Below, in pieces: positions 29,299-57,606 of a stretch of 64,000 bases of DNA (positions within the stretch are counted from its first letter, which is position 1; each line of letters begins with the position of its first letter). The stretch spans positions 21,665 through 85,664 of the forward strand of contig JACPZP010000125.1 in assembly GCA_016195405.1 (NCBI GenBank), read 5' to 3'. The stretch is from Planctomycetota bacterium (GTDB taxonomy: Bacteria; Planctomycetota; Planctomycetia; Gemmatales; Gemmataceae). Position numbers and translations under genes: made by a program. Below the pieces are notes generated by a model. It was not told the origin of the DNA. It worked only from the letters and a program-made list of their open reading frames with translations, and made no database searches.

Positions 29299-31466
29299 TT
29301 ACCGCACAAAAACAAACTCATCCAAATTAAACAGCAGCCACGCGAAGCCAGTTAGCCGCGCCGCGTCATTGCCAAGATACGCCAGTGCTCGGTTCATCTC
29401 CGACTCCGAAGACGGGCGTGCGATCGCCGTTCGATAGCCCAGGTCCACGGCGGCTTTCAAATCCTCGCCAACGGCTTTCTTGAGCCTTTCGGCGAACTTC
29501 GTGGTGGCCTTTTCGATCACGTCGCTATTCATCAGGAACAGGGCCTGCGGCGCGGTGACGGTGTGCGTCCTTATCGGACAGGGAGCGCGGCCGTCGTCGG
29601 CATCGAACGCTTGCAGGAAGCTCGGCATGACATCGCGGTTGTTCGCGTAGCCGCGGATGATGTAGGCGCCGCGACGTACGAGAGGCGAAGAAGAGGGGCG
29701 AGGGGCGAGCACTGATAATCCATCCTTCGGATCAAAGGACGGGCCGCCGATCGTCAGGTCGAGGCTTCCGGCCGAGCCGAAAATCGAATCCCAAACCGTC
29801 TCGGCGTCGAGACGCCGCAGCGGGAAACGCCAAAGATGCGTATTTCCAGGATCGATTTTCAGATTGGCCTCTCGCTCCTCAGACGTTCGCCGGTACGCTC
29901 CTGAAGTAACGATGAGCCGGTGCATCGCCTTCATGCTGAAGTTCTGCTTCACGAATTCGGACGCCAACCAATCGAGCAATTCCGGATTGGACGGCGATCC
30001 ACCCAGCTTGCCGAAATCGTTGGGCGTCTTTTGCAAACCCTCGCCGAAGTGCCACTGCCAGAGGCGATTCACCGCTACTCGGGCGAAAAGCGGGTTTTCG
30101 GGCGCGGTGAGCCATTGGGTGAATGCCTCGATCCTGCCGTTGCGGAAGTCGATCTTGGGCGTGGTAAACGGCCAGCCGGGGCCAACCTCGTTCCTTTTTT
30201 GCGGCCTGGCGGGATCGCCGCTCGTCAGGATGTAGCTCTTTTCCAGTTCCTTTTTCCGATCGACTTCCACGGTCCAGAAGACAGGCAGCGTCAAATCTGC
30301 TTTGGTTTTCTCCAATTGCTTGAAGCCATTGACCAGCGCTTGGTACTTTTGACGATCCGTTTCCGGCATGATCCCCATGATCTTGCCCACGTCGATGCGC
30401 AGGATCGGGAAGTAATCGTCGGCGATCTTCTCCTCAAGGGCGGGCGCTGTTTCTCGGGCTTGAGAATGACGGCCCGCACGTCAGCGGGAAGCTGGGCCAC
30501 GCGCTCATCGAACAGTTTCTTCTTGTAAGGAGCGATCAACTCGAGAATGGGCGTCTGCACTGCCGCCAACTTTTTGTCCAGCGCATCGAGCGCGTGGCCA
30601 TGCGCCGTCACCTCGGCCGGATTGGCGAGCGTGACCTTTCTCAAAACGAGCGGATCGAAGAGCGCTTTCATGGCGTAGAAGTCACGCTGCTTGATGGGGT
30701 CGTACTCGTGGTCGTGGCATTTGGCACAGCCGACGGTCAAGCCCATGAAAGCCGTGGACACGGTCTCGACGGCCGCGATGGGCAATTCCTGGATTTCCTT
30801 GTCGCCGTGAACGACCGCGCCGCGGGCGAGAAACCCCAGAGCGAATAGGTCATCCGGCCGAGGCGCCACGCGCTCTTGAAAGCCGAGAACCGAGACCTCG
30901 GTGCGCGCAGTGGTTCGGCAGCCGGTCAACTGTGCGCACACGAATTGGTTGTAGGGCATATCGCTGTTGAGGGCGTTGATGACCCATTGACGCCACAGAT
31001 GGATGCCGGGCGCGGCGATCATGCCCTCGTCTACGTCGGCGTAACGGAGCACGTCGAGCCAATGCCGCGCATAGCGGACGCCGTGCTGCTCGCTGGCCAA
31101 AAGCCGATCGACCACTTTTTCATAGGCATCCGAAGACTGGTCCTGGAGAAACGCCTCCTGTTCGGCGGGACTCGGCGGGATGCCGACCAAATCGAGGTGG
31201 ACGCGCCGCAGCAGAGTGCGCCGATCGGCGGCTTCTGCTGCTTTCAGGCCTTTCGTCTGATGTTGGGCTGCGATAAAGGCGTCGATGGGATTGGCCGACT
31301 TGGCGGCTCCAACCGGAAGCGGCGGGCGGATTACGGGCTTGAGATACCAGGGCTTCGGAGTCTTGTCGTCGGTGTCGTCCGGCTTTGACGATCCGGCACC
31401 TGTTCCTGCAAGCCCGAGCGCGGACACAAGCATGCAAACACACACAGGCCAGCGAAGCGTTGCCAT
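29299..31466 (-). pseudogene. DUF1549/DUF1553 (PSCyt/PSD) family gene, interrupted by a -1/+1 frameshift near 30440-30455
   Basis: ORFs 30291..31466 (signal peptide, DUF1549-like N part) and 29299..30390 (DUF1553-like C part) overlap by 100 bp. A continuous sensible protein (...ILKPEKQRPALEEKIADDYFPILRIDVGKIMGIMPE...) is recovered by a 1-nt shift in the CGCCCGCCC run. Confidence 0.7.
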
Positions 31467-31657
31467 CTCTCTTGGCCCCCCAGGAAATCGTCGGCGCAGA
31501 ATTGATGCTATCCTTTGGGAAGCACAGAGTCAAACCGACACGCCGGCGGCATTCTTCAGCCGCAAGGACTTTTGCTGGCCCGCCATACCTTACATGGCCC
31601 AATCCGTGAGCTATGCTTGATTTGCAACAACTGTTCCCCCATCGGTGAGGCTCAGTC

Positions 31658-32974
31658 ATGCGGAGAAAATCGTCCAGGGTCAGATTGGCGAAGATCGGGA
31701 AATACCAGATCCTCGAAAAGATCGGCACCGGCGGCCAGGGGAAGGTCTACAAAGGGCTTGACCGGAACACGGGTCAATTCGTCGCGATCAAGATGATACC
31801 CGTGGAAGCGGCCGAAGACAGGGAGCAGGGCTTGCGGTTCGCCCAGGAATGTCAGGTCACCAAAAAGCTCGATCACCCTCACATCTTGCGCGTCCTGGAT
31901 TTCGGCATGGAGGGTCAGAAGCCGTTTCTCGTTATGGAATTCGTCGACGGCGAAAACCTGATGCAACGGCTCACCCGCGACGGCAAGATCCCGCCGGCGG
32001 AAGCGGTTCGCTTGCTGTCCCAAGTCGGCCACGCCCTGAATTGGACGCACCAGCGACAACTCATTCATCGCGACATCAAGCCGGCCAACATTCTCATCAC
32101 GAAGAACGGCGATGCCAAGCTCACCGATTTCGGCATCGCCAAGAACCTCGAGGGCGAATTCCAGCTTACGCAGCCCTGCAGTTGGCTCGGCACGCCAAGC
32201 TTCATGTCTCCCGAGCAATTTGAGGACGCCAAACGGGCCGATGCTTTGTGCGATCTCTATTCGCTGGCTGCCACCTTGTACATGACGATTACGGGCGTCA
32301 TCCCCTTTCGGGGCCGCTCGGCGAGCGCCCTGGCCGCGATTTACAAGAAAAAGCTGGCCAACGATATTGTGCCTCCGCGACAACTCGTGCCCGAGACGAG
32401 CGAGCGCGTGAACGCCGCCATCCTCCAAGGAATGCGGGCCGATCGGCGCGAACGCCACGCTTCCATGGCGGCATTTCTGGAAGCGCTTCTCGGAGAGGAG
32501 TCGGCTGCGGCCGCGGCGAATGCCATTAATGCGCGAGCGGATTCCTCCGCGCCGCAGGCGCCCGCTTCCGGGAAAGAACGCAGAATTCTGAAACGCTATC
32601 CCTGCGGCCAAAGCGCCGCCTGCCAGCCCATGGAGAGAGTTGTCCCGTGGGTCGGCAAAGTCGTGAACATCTCCCAGACCGGCCTTTGCGTGGAGTTGCC
32701 GCGCCGCTTCGAGCCCGGCGCCATTCTCCAAATCGCGCTGCCCGCCAAAGACACCGAACGGAACGTCATCGTGCGCGTCATGTGGGTCAAGAGACAAGCC
32801 GAGAAGCTCTGGCAAATGGGATGTCAATACGATTACCCACTGTACGATTTCGAAGTGGACGGCTTTCGCGTCACGAAACGCCGCGGGGACAAAAGTGGGG
32901 AACGGCCGCGCCCACGAAAATCGTCGGCATCCATACCCCGGCCACGGCAGCAGGTCGCAGGCAACGCGCGTTGA
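31658..32974 (+). CDS. Ser/Thr protein kinase fused to a C-terminal PilZ domain
   Basis: Hanks kinase motifs (GxGxxG, VAIK, HRDIKPAN, DFG, SPEQ). C-terminal RRILKR (RxxxR) then NISQTG (NxSxxG) 22 aa later. Confidence 0.85.
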   Translation: MRRKSSRVRLAKIGKYQILEKIGTGGQGKVYKGLDRNTGQFVAIKMIPVEAAEDREQGLRFAQECQVTKKLDHPHILRVLDFGMEGQKPFLVMEFVDGENLMQRLTRDGKIPPAEAVRLLSQVGHALNWTHQRQLIHRDIKPANILITKNGDAKLTDFGIAKNLEGEFQLTQPCSWLGTPSFMSPEQFEDAKRADALCDLYSLAATLYMTITGVIPFRGRSASALAAIYKKKLANDIVPPRQLVPETSERVNAAILQGMRADRRERHASMAAFLEALLGEESAAAAANAINARADSSAPQAPASGKERRILKRYPCGQSAACQPMERVVPWVGKVVNISQTGLCVELPRRFEPGAILQIALPAKDTERNVIVRVMWVKRQAEKLWQMGCQYDYPLYDFEVDGFRVTKRRGDKSGERPRPRKSSASIPRPRQQVAGNAR

Positions 32975-50809: not shown

Positions 50810-51658
50810 TTGGAGGTTGCAATGGTTACTACATTGGATGAAAGCCAAGACGTCATGCAGGTCTGTCGCAATGGCCACGTCATCACGGACCGTCTGCGCG
50901 GCGATCCCGACAGCGGGCGATCTCACTGCGACCGCTGCGGCGCTGTGACGTTCTACCACTGCCCGACATGCGGCGGCGAGTTCCCCGGCGCGCTGGATGT
51001 GACCGGCTTGGCTCCCATAGGCGGCAGACCGGCGCCGCACTACTGCTTAATGTGCGGCGCCGCGTTGCCTTGGGTGCGAAGGGCCCGACCTGCACCCGAG
51101 CCGGTCGCTGCACTCGAAGGCCTCCTGCGCCGGCTGCCGCTTGCTATCCGCCAACTTCGCTGGCGCCAGGGAGACCGGCCCCCCTACCGCGTGGAGGACG
51201 AGCGCGACCTCGAAGATCTGCTCCGAGCCTTGCTGACATTGCCCTTCGATGATGTACGCCTTGAAGGCCGCACACCCGCGTATAGTCCACGAAATCGAAC
51301 CGACTTGCTGTTGTCCAGAGGAAAGATCGCGCTCACCGTGAAGTTCGCGCGGCCCGACCTGCGCGAGCCGCAACTGGCGGAGCAACTAATGCAAGACGCC
51401 CTGTACTACCGCGAGCGCGGCGGCTGCCGGACGCTCGTGGGCTACGTCTACGATCCGGAAGGAACCCTTCGTGACATCCGCCGGGCCGAGAGCATCGGCG
51501 CCGGATGGGCGGAGGGACTGGAGGTGCGCTGCATCGTGAGCGGATTAGTGGATGCCGAAGGTGGGAATTTCACGACTCCGCTTGAGATCGGAACTTTCTT
51601 GCCTCAGGTTGAGCCGATTAGGCCGTTTGCTAACGGCGGTGCAGGCTCGCTTCGATGA
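50810..51658 (+). CDS. Hypothetical protein with an N-terminal 4x Cys-pair zinc ribbon and a C-terminal restriction-endonuclease-like region
   Basis: 282 aa. CRNGH...CDRC...CPTC...CLMC, then YRVEDERDLEDLL...RTDLLL...IALTVKF (E / D / xK-like spacing). Confidence 0.45.
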   Translation: MEVAMVTTLDESQDVMQVCRNGHVITDRLRGDPDSGRSHCDRCGAVTFYHCPTCGGEFPGALDVTGLAPIGGRPAPHYCLMCGAALPWVRRARPAPEPVAALEGLLRRLPLAIRQLRWRQGDRPPYRVEDERDLEDLLRALLTLPFDDVRLEGRTPAYSPRNRTDLLLSRGKIALTVKFARPDLREPQLAEQLMQDALYYRERGGCRTLVGYVYDPEGTLRDIRRAESIGAGWAEGLEVRCIVSGLVDAEGGNFTTPLEIGTFLPQVEPIRPFANGGAGSLR

Positions 51659-51892
51659 CTTCGACTGCCGATTTGGCAACAAAAACATCAAGCAGGCGGT
51701 TTATTGACGGCCAGCCTGCGAGCGGGCGAAGTCGCGGCCGGCGACGAGGTTTGTCGCGATCGAGTACGTATCGGGTTTGAAACGTTGGCGGCGCGGATTT
51801 CAATTGTTATTCGGCGCCGGCTACCGGGAACAGGGGAATGTGGATAAAATGACCATTTGTGCTTGTGTGTCAGGCGACATTTGGGGAAGGCG

Positions 51893-52147
51893 ACGATGAT
51901 TTCCAGCCATACGAGTTCTGTCGCTGAACGTGCGAAAGCGATCTACAGCCGACGGCTTCAAGCTGAATTGGAAGCGACGCATCCCGACGACTATGTGGCA
52001 ATTGAGCCGGAGTCGGACGAGCACTTTCTCGCCAATTCCTTCGCAGCAGCGGTTGCAGCCGCGCGTGCCGCTCATCCCGACTGCATCTCCTTCGTGATCC
52101 GCATCGGCCACCCAGCCGCGATCCATTTGGGAGGGTTGACCATTTGA
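51893..52147 (+). CDS. Hypothetical small protein (start taken at MISSHTS)
   Basis: ~84 aa. YVAIEPESDEHFLANSF...FVIRIG pattern, reminiscent of small TA-associated families (unverified). Confidence 0.3.
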   Translation, partial: TMISSHTSSVAERAKAIYSRRLQAELEATHPDDYVAIEPESDEHFLANSFAAAVAAARAAHPDCISFVIRIGHPAAIHLGGLTI

Positions 52148-52387
52148 ACGGTCGCGTCCGACATCGACTTTGCGCTAGGCGTTGCCGGTGGGGCGCACCT
52201 CGCGGAAGTCGTCGCTGACTGGACGGCTCGGATTTACCGCGAGTCGAGCGCCGTCCACCACGACACCCTGCAGGTCGACTCGAACGCCTGGCCGGGTCTC
52301 TGAAGGAACTGGCAGGATAGGGGTACAGCGGAATGACCAAAAACAAGCTGCTTCAGCTGCTGGGATGACCGTCCTCCTGCTCCTCCC

Positions 52388-52702
52388 ATGGGTAATTGGC
52401 CGGCATTGAGCGCATTTATCCTTGGAGAAGTTGGCCGATTTAACACGCCCAATGCGGCCAACGTTGCCAATATGATCAATCGTTGTCTTGGACTTGCTGA
52501 TGTAAGAATCTCATGGGGATGGAAGAACTGCACAGCGGCCCAAGCGGAGACTCTGCTTAACGAAGCGCTCGACCATCGTCATGAAATCGCCCACGGAGTC
52601 AATCCGCGTCCTGTCATCACAACGCGTACTCAAGATGGCTTCCTGGCTTCATACGGAGGCTTGCGATTTGCACCGATCAGTCCGTTCGTCAGCATTTGGT
52701 AG
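52388..52702 (+). CDS. Hypothetical small protein with an Rx4HG (HEPN-like) motif
   Basis: 104 aa. DHRHEIAHG fits Rx4-6H. Weak assignment. Confidence 0.25.
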   Translation: MGNWPALSAFILGEVGRFNTPNAANVANMINRCLGLADVRISWGWKNCTAAQAETLLNEALDHRHEIAHGVNPRPVITTRTQDGFLASYGGLRFAPISPFVSIW

Positions 52703-53052
52703 CGGTCAACGGGTTGCCAAATCCCTGGCCACCCTGACTGGCGGCGCTCGCCGAAGGGTCGGTGCGCTCGCTCGACGCCGGCGAACTCCAGCAAGCCTTC
52801 GGCGTGGTGATGCACGCGCTGATCGCAGAGTCGGTCGTGCCGACGTCGCTCAGGTAGAGGAGGCTGTAGCCGGAGAAGACTTTCGCCTGGTTGGTAACCT
52901 GGTAGCCCACAGGTTGACCGTGACCTCCGGGAGGACGGCAAAGCCCAAGTGGCCGGCAGTCGCTCGTTTGTGAGCATCCTTTTTGGGATAAAACACCTCT
53001 AAGTCCGGCAATCCACGGGTTCCGCCGGCGAAATACTCGGAAGGAGAAGACA

Positions 53053-53199
53053 ATGACGAACATGCGACCGACCTTGAATTTTCCCACGCCGAAGCCAACC
53101 TGGATGCCGCGGCGTGCCAGGCCCATCAGTACGCTCCTGGACTTGCTAATCGCCATTGGAGCGGTTGCGGTCATGGGGGCCGTGCTGTTCTTGCTCTGA
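53053..53199 (+). CDS. Candidate 48-aa tail-anchored membrane peptide (not in the supplied ORF track, below its length cutoff)
   Basis: Strong SD (AAGGAG) 6 nt before the ATG at 53053. MTNMRPTLNFPTPKPTWMPRRARPISTLLDLLIAIGAVAVMGAVLFLL, basic N-part plus one C-terminal TM helix. ~75 nt from the tRNA 3' end. Confidence 0.3.
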   Translation: MTNMRPTLNFPTPKPTWMPRRARPISTLLDLLIAIGAVAVMGAVLFLL

Positions 53200-53273
53200 T
53201 AATTCGGGCTTGACCGCGCCGCCTATTGGATGTGACGCCAGCCGAGTCCATTGCTGGTATGCAGGTGTTGAAA

Positions 53274-53345
53274 AGCCGCCTCAGGGATTTGAACCCTGGA
53301 CCCCCGCTTTACGAAAGCGGTGCTCTACCGCTGAGCTAAGGCGGC
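53274..53345 (-). tRNA. tRNA-Thr (anticodon CGU)
   Basis: Reverse complement reads GCCGCCTTAGCTCAGCGGTAGAGCACCGCTTTCGTAAAGCGGGGGTCCAGGGTTCAAATCCCTGAGGCGGCT: 7-bp acceptor stem, D-loop AGCTCAGCGGTAGAGC, anticodon loop TTCGTAA, T-arm GGTTCAAATCC. Confidence 0.85.
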
Positions 53346-53398
53346 GCATCGGCGCTGACCGAATTTTATTGCGGCCCGCCGTAGCTGTCAATTCGGGC
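53306..53398. repeat. Direct repeat copy 1 (tRNA-Thr 5' half plus ~55 bp of upstream flank), left boundary of islet
   Basis: 93 bp matching 55696..55788 with 4 mismatches. Confidence 0.85.
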
Positions 53399-53583
53399 TC
53401 GAACGAGATCAGAAACGGTTGGAACCTCGCGGGAGAAAGGGAGGACGGCGCACGTATAGTCCTTCGGCGCCGGTTCCTAAACGAACGGGAAGAGGGCAAA
53501 GACAAGAGGGATGCAAGGGAACATACCGGGATTGTGACCGAGCAAGGTGCCGCGGGCAACAATAAACGCCGCGGTCATTTATA

Positions 53584-54534
53584 ATGAAAGGATCGCGGGC
53601 AATTTCCCCATTCCGGGAGACTAACCCAATGATCACAACGCCCACCGTATTCATCTTGGGCGCCGGCGCGAGCATTCCCTATGAGTTTCCGTCCGGACAG
53701 GCACTTGCGGATTCCATCTGTGAACCCGGAGAGAATGTAGGTTGGTTGGTGGCTTATGGATTCGAAGAGAGCCACGCCAAGAGATTCGTCAAGGAGCTGA
53801 GACGCGCGCAAAGCGAATCAATTGATTCTTTTCTGGAAGACCGGCCAGAGTTCAAAGAAATTGGCAAAACTGCCATCGCCATAAGGCTAATTAAGTATGA
53901 AAACCAGGAACAGTTTTTCATCGTCAACAAGCGGAATTGGTACACCCTTTTGCTCAAACGGATGTATAGTTCCCTCGACGAGTTCCCCAACAACACAGTA
54001 AGTATCGTTACGTTCAACTACGATCGGTCACTTGAGCACTTCATCTTCGAGGCTCTGTGCGCTCGATCCGGGAAGCCACCTAGTGAAGTCGCCGCTGCAT
54101 TGCAGAAGATACCGTTCATTCATGTTCACGGACAGATGGGATTCTTGCCCTGGCAAACTTCAAGCGACAATGACAAAAGGCCATACGCAACTACCGAATC
54201 GGAAGTCGCAGTGCGAACGGCCGCAAAAGGCATCAAGATTGTTTCCGAAGGAAATGAAGAAAGCGAAGAGTTCGTCGCCGCGCGAAGGTCCATCAACGAC
54301 GCTCGACGCCTTCACTTTCTTGGCTTTGTGTATCATGAAACCAATATGCGCCGCTTGGGTGCTTCGTTCGAGCTGTTCGACAAAAAAGAAGTCTCAGGAA
54401 CTTGTTTCGGGATGACCGACGCCGAGCAAGATCTTGTGCTACGGCGCGTTAACTACAGTCTGAAACATTTCGGGCCAGCGAACCAAGGCAATCATGAGTT
54501 TCTGCGCAACTCAAAGCTGTTCCTCAGTGACTAA
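53584..54534 (+). CDS. SIR2-like (SIR2_2 / sirtuin-fold, putative NAD+-consuming) protein (alternative start MITTPTVF at 53629 after GGGAGA)
   Basis: 316 aa. FILGAGASIPYEFPSGQ (compare sirtuin GAGIStesGIPdFRS), TFNYDRSLEH (SIR2_2 TTNYD motif) and HVHGQ (catalytic His) in the correct order with ~36-aa N-to-H spacing. Visibly AT-richer than its surroundings. Confidence 0.65.
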   Translation: MKGSRAISPFRETNPMITTPTVFILGAGASIPYEFPSGQALADSICEPGENVGWLVAYGFEESHAKRFVKELRRAQSESIDSFLEDRPEFKEIGKTAIAIRLIKYENQEQFFIVNKRNWYTLLLKRMYSSLDEFPNNTVSIVTFNYDRSLEHFIFEALCARSGKPPSEVAAALQKIPFIHVHGQMGFLPWQTSSDNDKRPYATTESEVAVRTAAKGIKIVSEGNEESEEFVAARRSINDARRLHFLGFVYHETNMRRLGASFELFDKKEVSGTCFGMTDAEQDLVLRRVNYSLKHFGPANQGNHEFLRNSKLFLSD

Positions 54535-54708
54535 ACCTAAACTCACTTCACCGGCCGGCCACGCCACGCTTGGCCTTGTTTTTGAGCCGCGGCTTTTGTT
54601 GAAATGTGGTGCAGCCCACGCCGAGGGCATCGGCCAGCGCGATGGGCGACCGGAGGGTGATTCAAGGAATAATGGGCAGAATTTGCAAGCTTCCGACTGG
54701 CCACATGC

Positions 54709-55512
54709 TCATCGAGCTTCCGCCAGCCCGGCTCTTCTTGCAGCGGCCGGAAGGCCAGCGCGTGCGCTCGGTCCAATTCTGGGATCATTGGCAAGATCGA
54801 TCGCTAGGTTGTGAAGATCTGGAAAAAGAGACGCACGACGAATGCCCAATATCCGAAGCTCTTCTGAAAATGTTGCCCTCGCTTGCTCTGGAATCACAAG
54901 CTTCACCAAGTATTTGTCCGCGTTCCCACGATCCTCCAAGGGTGTGTTGTCTCCGTGAATTGTGTATGCACCTTGTTGCACCGTCATTCGAATATCCGAT
55001 TCCTCTCCCAAAGCTGCAAGTGCCGTGTCTGTCCTTGGGCCTCGATCAAACGCAGCTTTCACGAGTGGGTCCGCTTGCGGTCCACTCATGACAGCAATTC
55101 CGTCGAAGTGATCTTTATTTAGGTTAACAGGTGAGAGAACCCAAATAGCCGCAGGGCCTGGTTTGGGATCGAACGAAGCCGCAAAGTAAAGGGCGGCTTG
55201 AAGTGACGCAGTCCAATCCAACAAGCGAGTCGGCAGGCCGTAATGCTGCATGAGGCATAACCAGCCCCCAAGGTCGTCTTGAGCCGGCAATCGCCCATGC
55301 CTCATCGGAGCTTCCAGCTTAAAACGGTGGACAAGAAACGTTTCATCCATCGCATCAAACTTGCGATGCACGGACGGCACAAGTGTCCAACTATCACACG
55401 AATGGCCTCTGTACCACTCAGTCGTCAAGCCGACATTCGGGCAGACTTTTCGAATACCGCTTAAGAGCGATGCTGTATCGACAACTTCAATTTGGTTAAT
55501 TTGTCTGTTCAA
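54709..55512 (-). CDS. FRG-domain protein
   Basis: 267 aa. WYRGHSCDSWTLVPSVHRK matches the F/Y-R-G...W.L.PS..R signature that names the FRG domain. TTG start 7 nt after GAGGTGG. Convergent with the SIR2-like gene. Confidence 0.55.
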   Translation of the reverse strand: MNRQINQIEVVDTASLLSGIRKVCPNVGLTTEWYRGHSCDSWTLVPSVHRKFDAMDETFLVHRFKLEAPMRHGRLPAQDDLGGWLCLMQHYGLPTRLLDWTASLQAALYFAASFDPKPGPAAIWVLSPVNLNKDHFDGIAVMSGPQADPLVKAAFDRGPRTDTALAALGEESDIRMTVQQGAYTIHGDNTPLEDRGNADKYLVKLVIPEQARATFSEELRILGIRRASLFPDLHNLAIDLANDPRIGPSARAGLPAAARRAGLAEAR

Positions 55513-55695
55513 AGTGCCACCTCTACGGATAATTCGAAAACGGAGTGAAGAAATTTCGACCGGGTGTCATGACACCCGCAAGCAAGGTTTTTCACTGGTT
55601 TTTGCGGTCTTCGAAGGGCAATGCAAAAGTGGCGTTTTCCCAGCAAATAATCAGCTTTCCGCGTGTGTTACAGGACCGGCGTGATCGGCCTTATT

Positions 55696-55788
55696 GCTTT
55701 ACGAAAGCGGTGCTCTACCGCTGAGCTAAGGCGGCGCGTCCGCGCTGACCGAATTTTATTGCGACCCGCCGTAGCTGTCAATTCGGGG
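55696..55788. repeat. Direct repeat copy 2 (partial tRNA-Thr 5' half, nt 1-40 of the tRNA, plus upstream flank), right boundary of islet
   Basis: Identity with 53306..53398 starts exactly within the anticodon stem (GCTTTACGAAAGCGG...). 4 mismatches over 93 bp. Confidence 0.85.
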
Positions 55789-55878
55789 TCGTCTCCAGTG
55801 GATGGAGCGGATTGAAAAGAATGAGGCTGGCCGTTGAGGGGAAAACGGCCAGCCTCGTGGGTTCCTTGCGGAACGTCG

Positions 55879-57606
55879 TCATTTCACTTCGTCGAGCTTC
55901 TTGCCGCCGCCGAGTTGCAATTGGCTCGCGTCTTGCCCTGCATGCATCACGCTGGGACGGAAGCTGGAGGCGCCAAGATCGTTGGCGCTGCGCGAGCGGC
56001 GGTGGCCGATGACGCCGAGGAAGTTCTCGGCCGAGATGATGAACATGCCGCGCTCGATGGCGTCTTTGCGCATGGCCCGCATGGTCTCGTTAATGGCTTT
56101 GGCGCGGTCGGGCGTGTCGTCCCTCGCCTCTTTCGCCTCGGCTTCCTTCGCTTCGCCTTGCTTCGCTTCGCCGTCTTTGCCCTCGGCGTCCTTGTCCTTC
56201 TGCTTGGGCTTGAAGGCGTCGCCGTTCTTGGGCTCGGGAAGCAGGTCACCCAAGATCAGGTAGCGGGTGCGATAGTTGAGTTCGCCCTTAATCGTGTTGT
56301 CGGTCAGGTCGAGATAAGCGTCGACGCGGACGCCGTTGTTTTGCAGGATTTGCATGAACGCGTTCAGATTCCGCGTCTGCTCGGCCGGGGTGTCCGCGGG
56401 CTGGCCGTTCGGGTTGACGTTGCCGACCACGGCGACGTGCGAGCCCCAAAACATGTTGAAGAGGAGATCGCCTTCCTTGAGCGCGTTTTCCGATTCGCGC
56501 GCCAGCCGGCCCTTGGAAGCGTCGGCCAGCACGATTTCGCGGCCCTCGAGATCATAGAGGGAAGTAATGCGGCAGACCGAGGCGTTGTCGAGCACGCGAA
56601 TGACTTCACAGGTTCCCTTCATTTGGCCGGTCGCCTGGCGCTTGCCGTTGTCCGCGAAAATGTTGAAACTCAGCCCAGGCTTGGCGCCTTGCGCGGCGCC
56701 GATGTTGACGAAGAGCTGGCCGTTCTCGATGTCGACGCGCGTGACTTTGCCGAGCGGATTGTCCCACAACGTCTTGCCGGGGGACATGTCAAGCATGAGG
56801 GCGTGCACGTCGCCGGCCAACTTGACGGGAGCGTTGGGGTCTGCCTTTTGCACCTCAAATGCGACGATTTTCTTGTTCAGGTTGCGAATGACTGCCTCAT
56901 ACTTGGCCTTGTCGTTCTCAAGCTGGTCGCTCTGCTGTTTCTTCTCGTCATTGAGATCCTGGTTGCGTTTCATCTGTTTCTGCATTTCTTCGGTCTGCGC
57001 TTGAGCGGCCTTGAGCGTCTTGTTATTGCCGTCGGTGATAGCGACGTTAGCATCCTTCCACGACTTGTTAGTGGCGGCCTCCAGCTTTTCATAGCGCTCG
57101 TTGAGGGCCTTGTAGTCGGCTTGAGCGGTGTTGACTTGGGCACGGGCGTCTTCAAGGCTCTTGTTCAGCGTGGTAAAGGAGTCCTTGAATGTCTCCTTGT
57201 ACTTTTTTCCTTCCTTGTCGTAGTTCAGGCTCTTGCGCATCTCGGCGACCATCTTCTTGGCGGCCTCGCGCACTTTGGCGTCCTGCTTTCCGAATTCGCC
57301 GCCATCGCTGAGAAGATCGTCGATGGCAAGCTTGTAAAGATTCATTTCATCCGGATCCAACGCGTCGCCGTAGGCGAGCCGGGCTTCGCGGGCCAAGGTC
57401 AAGGCGTATTGCTCGCCGGTGTTGTTGGACTTGGCGAGTTGCGATTTTGCCTTGGCCTCTTCGCGCAGCTTCTCTTGTCCGGAGTAGCCGAAGTAGCCCC
57501 AAACGCCGAGGCCGATGCTCAAGAGGACGAAGAACGACAAGAAAATGACGAGGATCGTGCTCGGATTGGAGCCGTCGCGTTTGCCTGGTTTTCTCAGACC
57601 TGCCAT
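55879..57606 (-). CDS. Membrane-anchored coiled-coil protein with Lys/Glu-rich tail, hypothetical
   Basis: 575 aa. N-terminal TM (ILVIFLSFFVLLSIGLGVWGYF), long heptad coiled coil, C-terminal globular region. The overlapping + strand 664-aa ORF is a low-complexity antisense shadow. Confidence 0.55.
   Translation of the reverse strand: MAGLRKPGKRDGSNPSTILVIFLSFFVLLSIGLGVWGYFGYSGQEKLREEAKAKSQLAKSNNTGEQYALTLAREARLAYGDALDPDEMNLYKLAIDDLLSDGGEFGKQDAKVREAAKKMVAEMRKSLNYDKEGKKYKETFKDSFTTLNKSLEDARAQVNTAQADYKALNERYEKLEAATNKSWKDANVAITDGNNKTLKAAQAQTEEMQKQMKRNQDLNDEKKQQSDQLENDKAKYEAVIRNLNKKIVAFEVQKADPNAPVKLAGDVHALMLDMSPGKTLWDNPLGKVTRVDIENGQLFVNIGAAQGAKPGLSFNIFADNGKRQATGQMKGTCEVIRVLDNASVCRITSLYDLEGREIVLADASKGRLARESENALKEGDLLFNMFWGSHVAVVGNVNPNGQPADTPAEQTRNLNAFMQILQNNGVRVDAYLDLTDNTIKGELNYRTRYLILGDLLPEPKNGDAFKPKQKDKDAEGKDGEAKQGEAKEAEAKEARDDTPDRAKAINETMRAMRKDAIERGMFIISAENFLGVIGHRRSRSANDLGASSFRPSVMHAGQDASQLQLGGGKKLDEVK

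What the first reader, a model, noticed from the sequence alone, without database searches (positions are those of the whole stretch)
53274..55788. AT-rich islet at tRNA-Thr carrying a convergent SIR2-like and FRG-domain gene pair: candidate uncharacterised anti-phage module
The ~2.4-kb segment between two 93-bp direct repeats (53306..53398 and 55696..55788) is visibly AT-richer than the >65% GC surroundings. It contains only two genes, in convergent orientation. The first (53584..54534) has the three ordered signatures of the SIR2_2 / sirtuin-fold NADase family (GAGxS-IP..F, TxNYD, HG). The second (54709..55512) has the WYRGH...W.L.PS..R signature of the FRG domain, which is poorly characterised. 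SIR2-fold proteins are NAD+-depleting effectors in Thoeris, DSR, SIR2-HerA and prokaryotic Argonaute systems. A stand-alone 316-aa SIR2 paired with an FRG-domain protein is not a described system to my knowledge.
Basis: partly seen in the sequence, partly recalled or inferred. Interest (0 to 1): 0.85.

Follow-up and report, generated by a model that had tools for sequence, protein, structure and literature searches.

The report
tRNA mini-islet with two NAD-enzyme genes
A 2.3-kb piece of foreign DNA inserted in a threonine tRNA gene of a planctomycete carries two unrelated, probably independent candidate anti-phage genes (a minimal SIR2-type NAD-degrading enzyme and an FRG/ADP-ribosyltransferase-fold protein).

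Summary
tRNA-Thr(CGT) lies at 53274..53345 (-). Two 96-nt direct repeats (92/96 identical) flank a 2.29-kb segment, the lowest-GC stretch of the window (52% against 60%). It holds two convergent genes.

A relative with the same gene order has an intact tRNA and no islet, so this is an insertion. Unusually, the repeat is the tRNA promoter plus the 5' 40 nt of the tRNA, not the 3' end. There is no integrase.

Gene 2 is an FRG-domain protein (Pfam E 1.5e-19). It matches PADLOC's untested single-gene candidate PDC-S15 (E 1.7e-37) and has a weak ADP-ribosyltransferase fold.

The pairing is not conserved. Of 104 loci with SIR2-like relatives, one holds an FRG gene. Of 160 FRG loci, none holds a SIR2-like gene. 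The best reading is two independent single-gene defence candidates stacked at a tRNA hotspot. Neither has a proven function. The window copy of the SIR2 gene carries a unique Gly234Val change.

The parts
53274..53345 (-). Intact tRNA-Thr(CGT). Hybrid gene: the 3' 32 nt (53274-53305) are native and the 5' 40 nt (53306-53345) belong to repeat copy 1, supplied by the islet.
   Evidence: ARAGORN; Rfam RF00005 70.6 bits; alignment with the empty site L166.
53306..53401 (.). Direct repeat copy 1 (islet-borne): tRNA positions 1-40 plus 56 nt upstream. Beyond 53401 the sequence is islet-specific.
   Evidence: the repeat finder D1, 96 nt; alignment A4.
53363..53391 (-). Promoter-like site TTGACA-17-TAAAAT (11/12) that would drive the intact tRNA. 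It lies inside repeat copy 1.
   Evidence: Consensus scan. This and its twin are the only two such sites in 53200-55900.
53402..55695 (.). Unique islet DNA, 2294 bp, GC 0.521. Absent from the relative L166.
53629..54534 (+). Minimal single-domain SIR2_2/SIRim-type protein, 301 aa. Motifs G11AGAS15, T128-F-N130-Y-D132-R-S and H165-V-H167-G168. The window allele has Val234 in place of a near-invariant Gly.
54329..54329 (+). Single-nucleotide difference: T in the window, G in the independent Logan contig L273. It changes Gly234 to Val in the LGFGYH motif.
   Evidence: Gly in 232 of 243 family members, Val in none of the others.
54709..55512 (-). FRG-domain protein, 267 aa, TTG start with GAGG upstream. 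Divergent ADP-ribosyltransferase-like fold. Matches PADLOC PDC-S15.
55696..55791 (.). Direct repeat copy 2 (native): displaced tRNA 5' fragment (55696-55735) plus the native promoter region. It is contiguous with the terminator of the 575-aa gene, as in the empty site.
   Evidence: terminator hairpin 55856-55823.
55753..55781 (-). Native tRNA promoter copy (TTGACA-17-TAAAAT). It now points through the tRNA fragment towards the FRG gene, 183 nt further on the same strand. That it transcribes FRG is inference.
   Evidence: coordinates.

Best explanation
A 2.3-kb foreign mini-islet is inserted in the chromosomal tRNA-Thr(CGT) gene of a Gemmataceae-like planctomycete.

Insertion geometry. The insertion point is at the anticodon stem-loop. 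The islet brought its own copy of the tRNA promoter and the first 40 nt of the tRNA. The tRNA therefore stays intact and expressed, while the native promoter and 5' fragment were displaced to the far end. This is the mirror image of the usual duplication of the tRNA 3' end. The islet has no integrase, so it was either moved in trans or is a stripped-down remnant (inferred).

Cargo. The islet carries two unrelated single-gene candidate defence effectors that both use NAD+ and most likely act independently.
1. A minimal SIR2_2/SIRim-type enzyme of 301 aa with no sensor domain. Its predicted action is to hydrolyse NAD+ on activation and abort infection. Activation is probably by oligomerisation or filament formation, as in ThsA, KomC and FAM118B.
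2. An FRG-domain protein (PADLOC PDC-S15) with a divergent ADP-ribosyltransferase fold. It is predicted to degrade NAD+ or ADP-ribosylate a target.

What is shown: the insertion, the folds, the motif conservation and the lack of co-occurrence.
What is inferred: NADase activity, the defence role, the mode of activation, and transcription of the FRG gene from the displaced tRNA promoter.
For: Insertion:
- The empty site is seen in L166. Its 575-aa orthologue is 84% identical, the order Rho-CoaE-PolA-575aa-tRNA-Thr is the same, and its tRNA lies 153 nt after the gene with no islet.
- GC and GC3 are outliers.
- Copy 2 is contiguous with the native terminator; copy 1 is flanked by islet DNA.

SIR2-like gene:
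- for fold and motif alignment.
- N130 is invariant in 243/243, D132 in 241/243 and G168 in 243/243 family members.
- Literature places nearly all bacterial SIR2_2/SIRim proteins in defence neighbourhoods (bioRxiv 10.1101/2024.09.18.613514; PMC12700824).

FRG gene:
- for domain, candidate-family match and fold.
- PMC9503650 for the superfamily assignment.
- Relatives occur in at least 93 viral contigs and after the replication gene of a P2-like phage.

Independence of the two genes:
- 1 of 104 and 0 of 160 cross-hits.
- No conserved neighbour.
- 71 of 91 SIR2-like genes lack any tightly coupled upstream gene.
- The best 150 representatives are nearly all about 300 aa and single-domain.
- The one other co-occurrence, L043, is a row of SIR2-like, FRG, an unknown gene and TIR. 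That looks like island stacking.
Against: - Neither family has been tested experimentally. PDC-S15 is explicitly untested.
- The immediate neighbours of the SIR2-like family are mostly housekeeping genes, with only a few defence or mobile genes. Its defence-island association was therefore not shown here.
- The window protein itself gets no Pfam SIR2_2 hit.
- The window allele has Gly234Val in a near-invariant motif and may be inactive.
- No integrase was found within about 15 kb, so the integration mechanism is unproven.
Confidence: 0.6

Rival explanations
1. One reading: the SIR2-like and FRG proteins form one two-gene system. For example, the ART-like FRG protein might make an NAD-derived signal or modify the SIR2 protein, which then depletes NAD+.
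For: - The two are the only genes on the islet and are convergent with a 174-nt gap.
- Both folds bind NAD+.
- A second adjacency exists in Ferruginibacter L043.
- Small SIR2 effectors such as KomC and the SIR2 of SIR2-HerA normally need partners.
Against: - Co-occurrence is 1/104 and 0/160.
- Orientation differs between the only two cases: convergent here, tandem in L043.
- Convergent genes cannot be co-transcribed.
- The SIR2-like protein has no signal-binding domain such as SLOG or Macro.
- No fusions appear among the best 120-150 relatives of either protein.
Confidence: 0.08
2. The genes are not functioning defence genes here. They may be decaying or selfish cargo, for example toxin-like genes that merely hitch-hike, or NAD-dependent enzymes with another role.
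For: - Gly234Val is unique to the window copy, at a position that is Gly in 232/243 members.
- Neighbourhoods of the SIR2-like family are dominated by ordinary genes.
- No experimental evidence exists for either family.
- The flank on the other side of the tRNA holds gene remnants, including a HEPN fragment.
Against: - Both ORFs are full length with all other conserved residues intact.
- Both families are large and well conserved, which implies selection.
- The closest folds are defence NADases and ART toxins.
- An independent assembly has the Gly allele.
Confidence: 0.22
3. Assembly artefact. The islet is really a separate (for example excised, circular) molecule that shares the 42-nt identical core with the tRNA and was threaded into the chromosome contig.
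For: - Both Logan contigs stop 28 nt inside the tRNA part of the repeat (53318 and 55708). This independent k=31 assembly therefore does not span either critical junction.
Against: - The two repeat copies differ at 4 positions, and the identical core is only 42 nt. Ordinary reads and k-mers above 42 resolve that (inference).
- A 2.4-kb circle without a replication gene is implausible.
- Each Logan contig carries the repeat variant expected for the integrated arrangement next to its own flank.
Confidence: 0.05

Closest known systems
SIR2_2 / SIRim defence sirtuins: the SIR2 of SIR2-HerA (Nezha), KomC of Kongming, ThsA of Thoeris, DSR2, and human FAM118B
   Same: - Rossmann SIR2 fold without the zinc module.
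- GAGxS loop, TxNYD and xHG motifs that align residue for residue with KomC (N, D, H146).
- Similar size to KomC (264 aa) and the FAM118B core (about 300 aa).
   Different: - No HerA, KomA/KomB, TIR or pAgo partner, and no SLOG, Macro or sensor domain.
- Only 12-18% identity.
- Below the Pfam SIR2_2 threshold.
- The family has extra signatures: S-x-D-x-FLE-x-R, GK, LPWQ and GFGYH-x-x-N.
- The canonical catalytic His is Tyr in 62 of 243 members.
PADLOC PDC-S15 (single-gene FRG-domain defence candidate) / Pfam FRG PF08867
   Same: Full-length HMM match (E 1.7e-37, profile positions 61-267 of 276) and the FRG domain above the Pfam cut-off. Single-gene architecture of about 250 aa.
tRNA-targeting genomic islets, and integrase-less cis-mobilisable remnants
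   Same: Foreign DNA flanked by direct repeats that include part of a tRNA gene. An empty site exists in a relative. The boundary lies at the anticodon stem-loop, one of the classical crossover sublocations.
   Different: - The repeat is the 5' half plus the promoter, not the 3' part.
- Integration on the 5' side is rare but has been reported for Klebsiella arg2 islands (bioRxiv 10.1101/2020.11.02.365908).
- No integrase or excisionase.
- Only 2.3 kb.

Membership tests
SIR2_2 / SIRim sirtuin subfamily | SIR2 Rossmann fold | tested here: met
SIR2_2 / SIRim sirtuin subfamily | NAD-binding GAGxS loop, catalytic Asn/Asp (TxNYD) and His (xHG) | tested here: met
   G11AGAS15, N130, D132 and H167 align with KomC GAGVS, TTNYDR and H146. 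Conservation.
SIR2_2 / SIRim sirtuin subfamily | Absence of the zinc-binding Cys4 module of canonical sirtuins | tested here: met
   The 301-aa sequence has no CxxC pairs. A helical insert at 12-112 occupies that place. Criterion taken from PMC12700824.
SIR2_2 / SIRim sirtuin subfamily | Pfam PF13289 above the gathering score | tested here: not met
   The window protein has no Pfam hit at E<=1. Some relatives carry PF13289. The L043 homologue scores 23.7 bits against a cut-off of 24.5.
SIR2_2 / SIRim sirtuin subfamily | NAD+ hydrolysis | not testable with these tools
   Needs an enzyme assay.
Thoeris | ThsA with a SLOG or Macro sensor domain, plus an adjacent TIR ThsB | tested here: not met
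   Single-domain 301-aa protein. The islet holds only two genes and neither is TIR.
SIR2-HerA (Nezha) | Adjacent HerA ATPase | tested here: not met
   No such gene in the islet. No ATPase neighbour is conserved across 80 loci.
Kongming (KomABC) | KomA deaminase and KomB HAM1 partners | tested here: not met
   Absent from the islet.
DSR1/DSR2 | Protein of about 1000 aa with a C-terminal sensor region | tested here: not met
   301 aa; family median 304 aa.
Pfam FRG (PF08867) | HMM score above the gathering cut-off | tested here: met
   71.1 bits against a cut-off of 25, E 1.5e-19.
PADLOC PDC-S15 | Match to PDC-S15 models as a single gene | tested here: met
   PDLC04938 E 1.7e-37, 14 PDC-S15 models hit. 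No conserved partner in 160 loci.
ADP-ribosyltransferase (ART) superfamily | ART fold and an NAD-binding catalytic triad | tested here: inconclusive
Two-gene SIR2 + FRG system (as proposed) | Conserved co-localisation of the two families | tested here: not met
   1 of 104 SIR2-like loci has FRG; 0 of 160 FRG loci has a SIR2-like gene.
tRNA-integrated genomic island | Direct repeats containing tRNA sequence, and an empty site in a relative | tested here: met
tRNA-integrated genomic island | Element-encoded integrase | tested here: not met
   Only two genes in the islet. No recombinase domain in ORFs from 37.7 to 60.9 kb.

The most novel reading that the evidence does not exclude
The 301-aa protein represents a very large, unnamed family of self-contained single-gene SIR2 NADase defence proteins. 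The family has at least 6,139 clusters at 50% identity (E<=1e-30) and is found across bacteria, archaea and prophages. On this reading the proteins sense infection and activate without any partner or sensor domain, for instance by filament assembly. About a quarter of them have replaced the canonical catalytic His with Tyr. In this window the gene also rides on an integrase-less cassette that rebuilds the tRNA from the promoter side.
Probability: 0.35. Interest if true: 0.55.

Novelty: new member of a known kind. Interest (0 to 1): 0.35.

Why it matters
The result removes a tempting false lead, a "SIR2+FRG system". It replaces that lead with three concrete, testable items.

1. A huge and uncharacterised clade of minimal SIR2 proteins. 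It would be the simplest known SIR2 defence architecture and a bacterial counterpart to the human FAM118 proteins.
2. A clean natural example of the untested PADLOC candidate PDC-S15 (FRG). It comes with a good structural model that supports the predicted ADP-ribosyltransferase ancestry.
3. A rare mirror-image mode of tRNA-gene integration, in which the incoming DNA supplies the promoter and 5' half of the tRNA.

None of these overturns current ideas. They extend known themes: NAD+ depletion in defence, and tRNA integration hotspots.

Tried and rejected
- Conserved-partner search for the SIR2-like family. All-against-all BLASTP clustering of ORFs within 4 kb in 80 genome loci found no cluster in more than 4 loci. 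Pfam and PADLOC scans of 142 immediate neighbours gave at most 3 members per family.
- Upstream partner. The two closest homologues with long contigs each have an upstream gene overlapping by 4 nt (257 and 271 aa). The P0005 partner has no relative or remnant in the window or in the 80 genome loci. The P0007 partner could not be compared because its locus returned no DNA. Only 20 of 91 loci have any tightly coupled upstream ORF.
- Direct sequence searches of PDB with the single proteins gave nothing. NCBIfam gave nothing. The FRG profile against PDB gave nothing.
- Exact look-up of the FRG protein's contig failed.
- The SIR2-like protein has no hit in GenBank phages and only distant hits on three Rhizobium megaplasmids.
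- Islet DNA was not found in any of 273 fetched loci apart from the same-sample contigs.
- The intergenic region between the convergent genes has no significant structure (z 0.4-0.7). Rfam found only the tRNA.
- There is no synteny on the 3' side of the tRNA with L166 or L167.
- One literature search was wasted on FRG1/FSHD hits. The Burroughs & Aravind 2020 paper is not held in the library.
Full report
**1. Observation**

ARAGORN finds one tRNA in the window, tRNA-Thr(CGT), at 53274..53345 on the minus strand. Rfam agrees. The longest direct repeat near it is 96 nt, at 53306-53401 and 55696-55791, with 92 of 96 positions identical. Between the copies lie only two credible ORFs, in convergent orientation.

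The unique segment 53402-55695 has GC 0.521. That is the minimum among all 2.3-kb windows of the 64 kb (mean 0.600, sd 0.027). Its genes have GC3 of 0.58 and 0.49, against 0.77-0.79 for PolA and the neighbouring 575-aa gene.

Three details needed correction:
- The surroundings are about 60% GC, not above 65%.
- The repeats are 96 nt, not 93.
- The SIR2-like gene starts at 53629, not 53584. All homologues begin MIxxPT, an SD-like GGGAG precedes that ATG, and an independent gene call gives 301 aa.

**2. The islet is a true insertion with an unusual geometry**

The identical FRG and 575-aa proteins are named in NCBI as coming from a Planctomycetes MAG, and relatives are Gemmataceae.

A Logan contig, L166, encodes an 84%-identical orthologue of the 575-aa gene with the same order Rho-CoaE-PolA-575aa. 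In L166 an intact tRNA-Thr(CGT) follows 153 nt after that gene, with nothing in between.

The alignment shows how the two repeat copies differ in origin:
- Copy 2 (55696-55791) is contiguous with the terminator hairpin of the 575-aa gene, exactly as in L166. It is therefore the native tRNA promoter region plus native tRNA positions 1-40. It breaks off after position 40, inside the 3' strand of the anticodon stem.
- Copy 1 is flanked on its outer side by islet-specific DNA. It is joined to the native 3' 32 nt to give the intact tRNA.

Each copy contains TTGACA-17 nt-TAAAAT. These are the only two sigma-70-like sites in 53200-55900. The incoming DNA thus supplied a promoter and the 5' half of the tRNA. 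This is the mirror image of the usual duplication of the 3' part.

All four mismatches between the copies lie in the promoter part and none in the tRNA part. That pattern fits an element-borne look-alike site better than a duplication made at insertion (inference).

Integration on the 5' side of a tRNA gene is rare but has been reported for Klebsiella arg2 islands (bioRxiv 10.1101/2020.11.02.365908).

No integrase is present in the islet or in ORFs from 37.7 to 60.9 kb. The displaced native promoter now points towards the FRG gene on the same strand. Whether it drives that gene is untested.

The other, 3' side of the tRNA is also variable between relatives.

Independent Logan contigs from SRR12113414 reproduce both halves of the region but stop inside the 42-nt identical core. 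I could not span the two critical junctions with independent data. I rate an assembly artefact as unlikely (0.05).

**3. Gene 1, 53629..54534**

Sequence-level evidence:
- Pfam and NCBIfam give no hit.
- PADLOC SIR2 models hit the N-terminal half at E 9.4e-9.

Structural evidence:
- The AF2 model is confident, with pLDDT 92.8.
- All of Foldseek's top hits are defence NADases.

Catalytic residues:
- A family profile aligns GAGAS, TFNYDRS and HvHG with KomC's GAGVS, TTNYDR and H146. The catalytic set is therefore N130, D132 and H167.
- All three are present here.
- N130 is invariant in 243 relatives. H167 is Tyr in 62 of 243, while H165 is nearly invariant.

Architecture and family size:
- The whole protein is one SIR2 domain with a helical insert. 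It has no zinc module and no sensor domain.
- A profile search of 1.84 billion cluster representatives finds 6,139 at E<=1e-30. The best 150 are almost all 295-320 aa.
- Sources name the proteins only "hypothetical" or "SIR2 family protein".

Possible inactivation of the window copy:
- The single nucleotide that differs between the window and the independent Logan contig is at 54329, T against G. It turns Gly234 of the LGFGYH motif into Val.
- That position is Gly in 232 of 243 members and Val in none of the others.
- The window copy may therefore be an inactive allele, or this may be a consensus error.

**4. Gene 2, 54709..55512**

- Pfam FRG scores 71.1 bits against a cut-off of 25.
- Fourteen PADLOC PDC-S15 models hit, the best at E 1.7e-37 over nearly the full length.
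- PDC systems are 145 untested candidates predicted from genes embedded in known defence loci (bioRxiv 10.1101/2024.01.29.577857).
- The Aravind group assigns Frg to the ADP-ribosyltransferase superfamily and predicts it to be an antiviral effector, possibly an NADase (PMC9503650).
- FRG relatives occur in at least 93 IMG/VR contigs. One sits just after the replication gene at the right end of a P2-like phage. From my own knowledge, that position is a known cargo hotspot of P2-like phages.

**5. Are the two genes one system?**

Both directions of the co-occurrence test were run:

| Loci searched | Collection | Cross-hit found |
|---|---|---|
| 80 with SIR2-like relatives | genomes | 1 FRG gene (L043) |
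| 24 with SIR2-like relatives | viral contigs | 0 FRG genes |
| 80 with FRG relatives | metagenomes | 0 SIR2-like genes |
| 80 with FRG relatives | viral contigs | 0 SIR2-like genes |

Further points:
- No protein family of any kind is a recurrent neighbour of the SIR2-like gene.
- 71 of 91 SIR2-like copies lack a tightly coupled upstream gene.
- The one other adjacency, in Ferruginibacter L043, is tandem rather than convergent. It sits in a row of SIR2-like, FRG, an unknown gene and a TIR protein that matches PDC-S66 and ThsB-like models. That looks like stacking of separate NAD-consuming candidates in an island.

I conclude that the two genes are independent single-gene modules. I leave 0.08 for a local functional link.

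**6. Mechanism, with its basis**

Shown:
- The insertion.
- The folds.
- Intact catalytic motifs, apart from the Gly234Val question.
- Independence of the two families.

Inferred from established knowledge of SIR2-HerA, Thoeris, DSR2, Kongming and FAM118B:
- The SIR2-like protein hydrolyses NAD+ when activated and aborts infection.
- Lacking a sensor or partner, it is most likely controlled by oligomerisation.

Inferred from the ART assignment:
- FRG consumes NAD+ or ADP-ribosylates a target.

The neighbourhood data here do not demonstrate a defence-island association for the SIR2-like family. A few neighbours are AAA_21 ATPases, methylases, Mrr-type nucleases or transposases, but many are housekeeping genes. 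The defence role is therefore a prediction at about 0.55-0.6.

**7. Comparison and novelty**

- The SIR2-like protein works like a SIR2_2/SIRim NADase but fails the membership tests for Thoeris, SIR2-HerA, Kongming and DSR. It lacks the partners and the extra domains. It also falls below Pfam's SIR2_2 threshold.
- FRG is a straightforward member of Pfam FRG and PADLOC PDC-S15.
- The islet is a tRNA-integrated element without an integrase and with a rare 5'-side repeat.
- Overall these are new members of known kinds, not a new system.
- Interest is moderate to low, 0.35. The most interesting residue is the size and simplicity of the unnamed SIR2 family, together with the mirror-image tRNA rebuild.

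Noticed in passing
window 54329 (codon 234 of the SIR2-like gene): This is the only difference between the window and an independent 1,490-nt Logan contig of the same region (T against G). It converts a near-invariant Gly of the LGFGYH motif to Val. It is either an inactivating allele in the population or a consensus error.
   Followed up: partly
SIR2-like family, position 167 (window 54127-54129): The canonical catalytic His, which aligns with KomC H146, is Tyr in 62 of 243 family members. The His two residues upstream (H165) is conserved in 241 of 243. This hints at a shifted or altered catalytic arrangement in part of the family.
   Followed up: partly
window 55753-55781 (-) towards 55512: The displaced native tRNA promoter (11/12 match to consensus) now reads through the 40-nt tRNA fragment towards the FRG gene on the same strand. 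It could give that gene strong constitutive transcription.
   Followed up: no
window 50810-51658 (+): A 282-aa protein with an N-terminal DUF2321 zinc-ribbon and a DpnII/MboI-type restriction-endonuclease fold. It also matches PADLOC Argonaute-associated 'Helical-REase' models. It is a further defence-like gene on the other side of the tRNA.
   Followed up: partly
window 51660-53270, especially 52388-52702 (+): A gene-poor stretch of lower GC (0.58) on the 3' side of the tRNA. It holds a 104-aa ORF that matches only the C-terminal part of a RiboL-PSP HEPN domain (RHEIAH motif), probably a remnant. This side has no synteny with either relative (L166, L167), so the tRNA is variable on both sides.
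   Followed up: partly
L043 8001-11985 (Ferruginibacter MAG): Four genes in a row on one strand: SIR2-like, FRG (PDC-S15), a 248-aa unknown and a TIR-domain protein (PDC-S66 / ThsB-like). Three different NAD-consuming folds lie side by side.
   Followed up: partly
L162 5231-6948 and the P0007 locus (no DNA returned): In the two closest SIR2-like homologues on long contigs, an upstream gene of 257 or 271 aa overlaps the SIR2 start by 4 nt. One has a weak Trypsin_2 hit; the other has no Pfam hit. The 257-aa partner has no relative in the window or in the other fetched SIR2 loci. These may be variable partners in a subclade.
   Followed up: partly
L167 8951-10715: In a more distant relative, the 3' side of the same tRNA-Thr(CGT) carries an HNH nuclease gene and a DDE_3 transposase. 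This supports the tRNA as a recurrent insertion hotspot.
   Followed up: no
L166 7625-7696 against window 53274-53345: The orthologous tRNA-Thr differs by a compensatory base-pair change in the anticodon stem (CCGCT/AGCGG against CAGCT/AGCTG).
   Followed up: no
L168 (P2-like phage P22H1, record 30979-32343): A 454-aa protein with an FRG domain lies just after the replication gene at the right end of the phage genome, where P2-like phages carry variable anti-phage cargo.
   Followed up: partly
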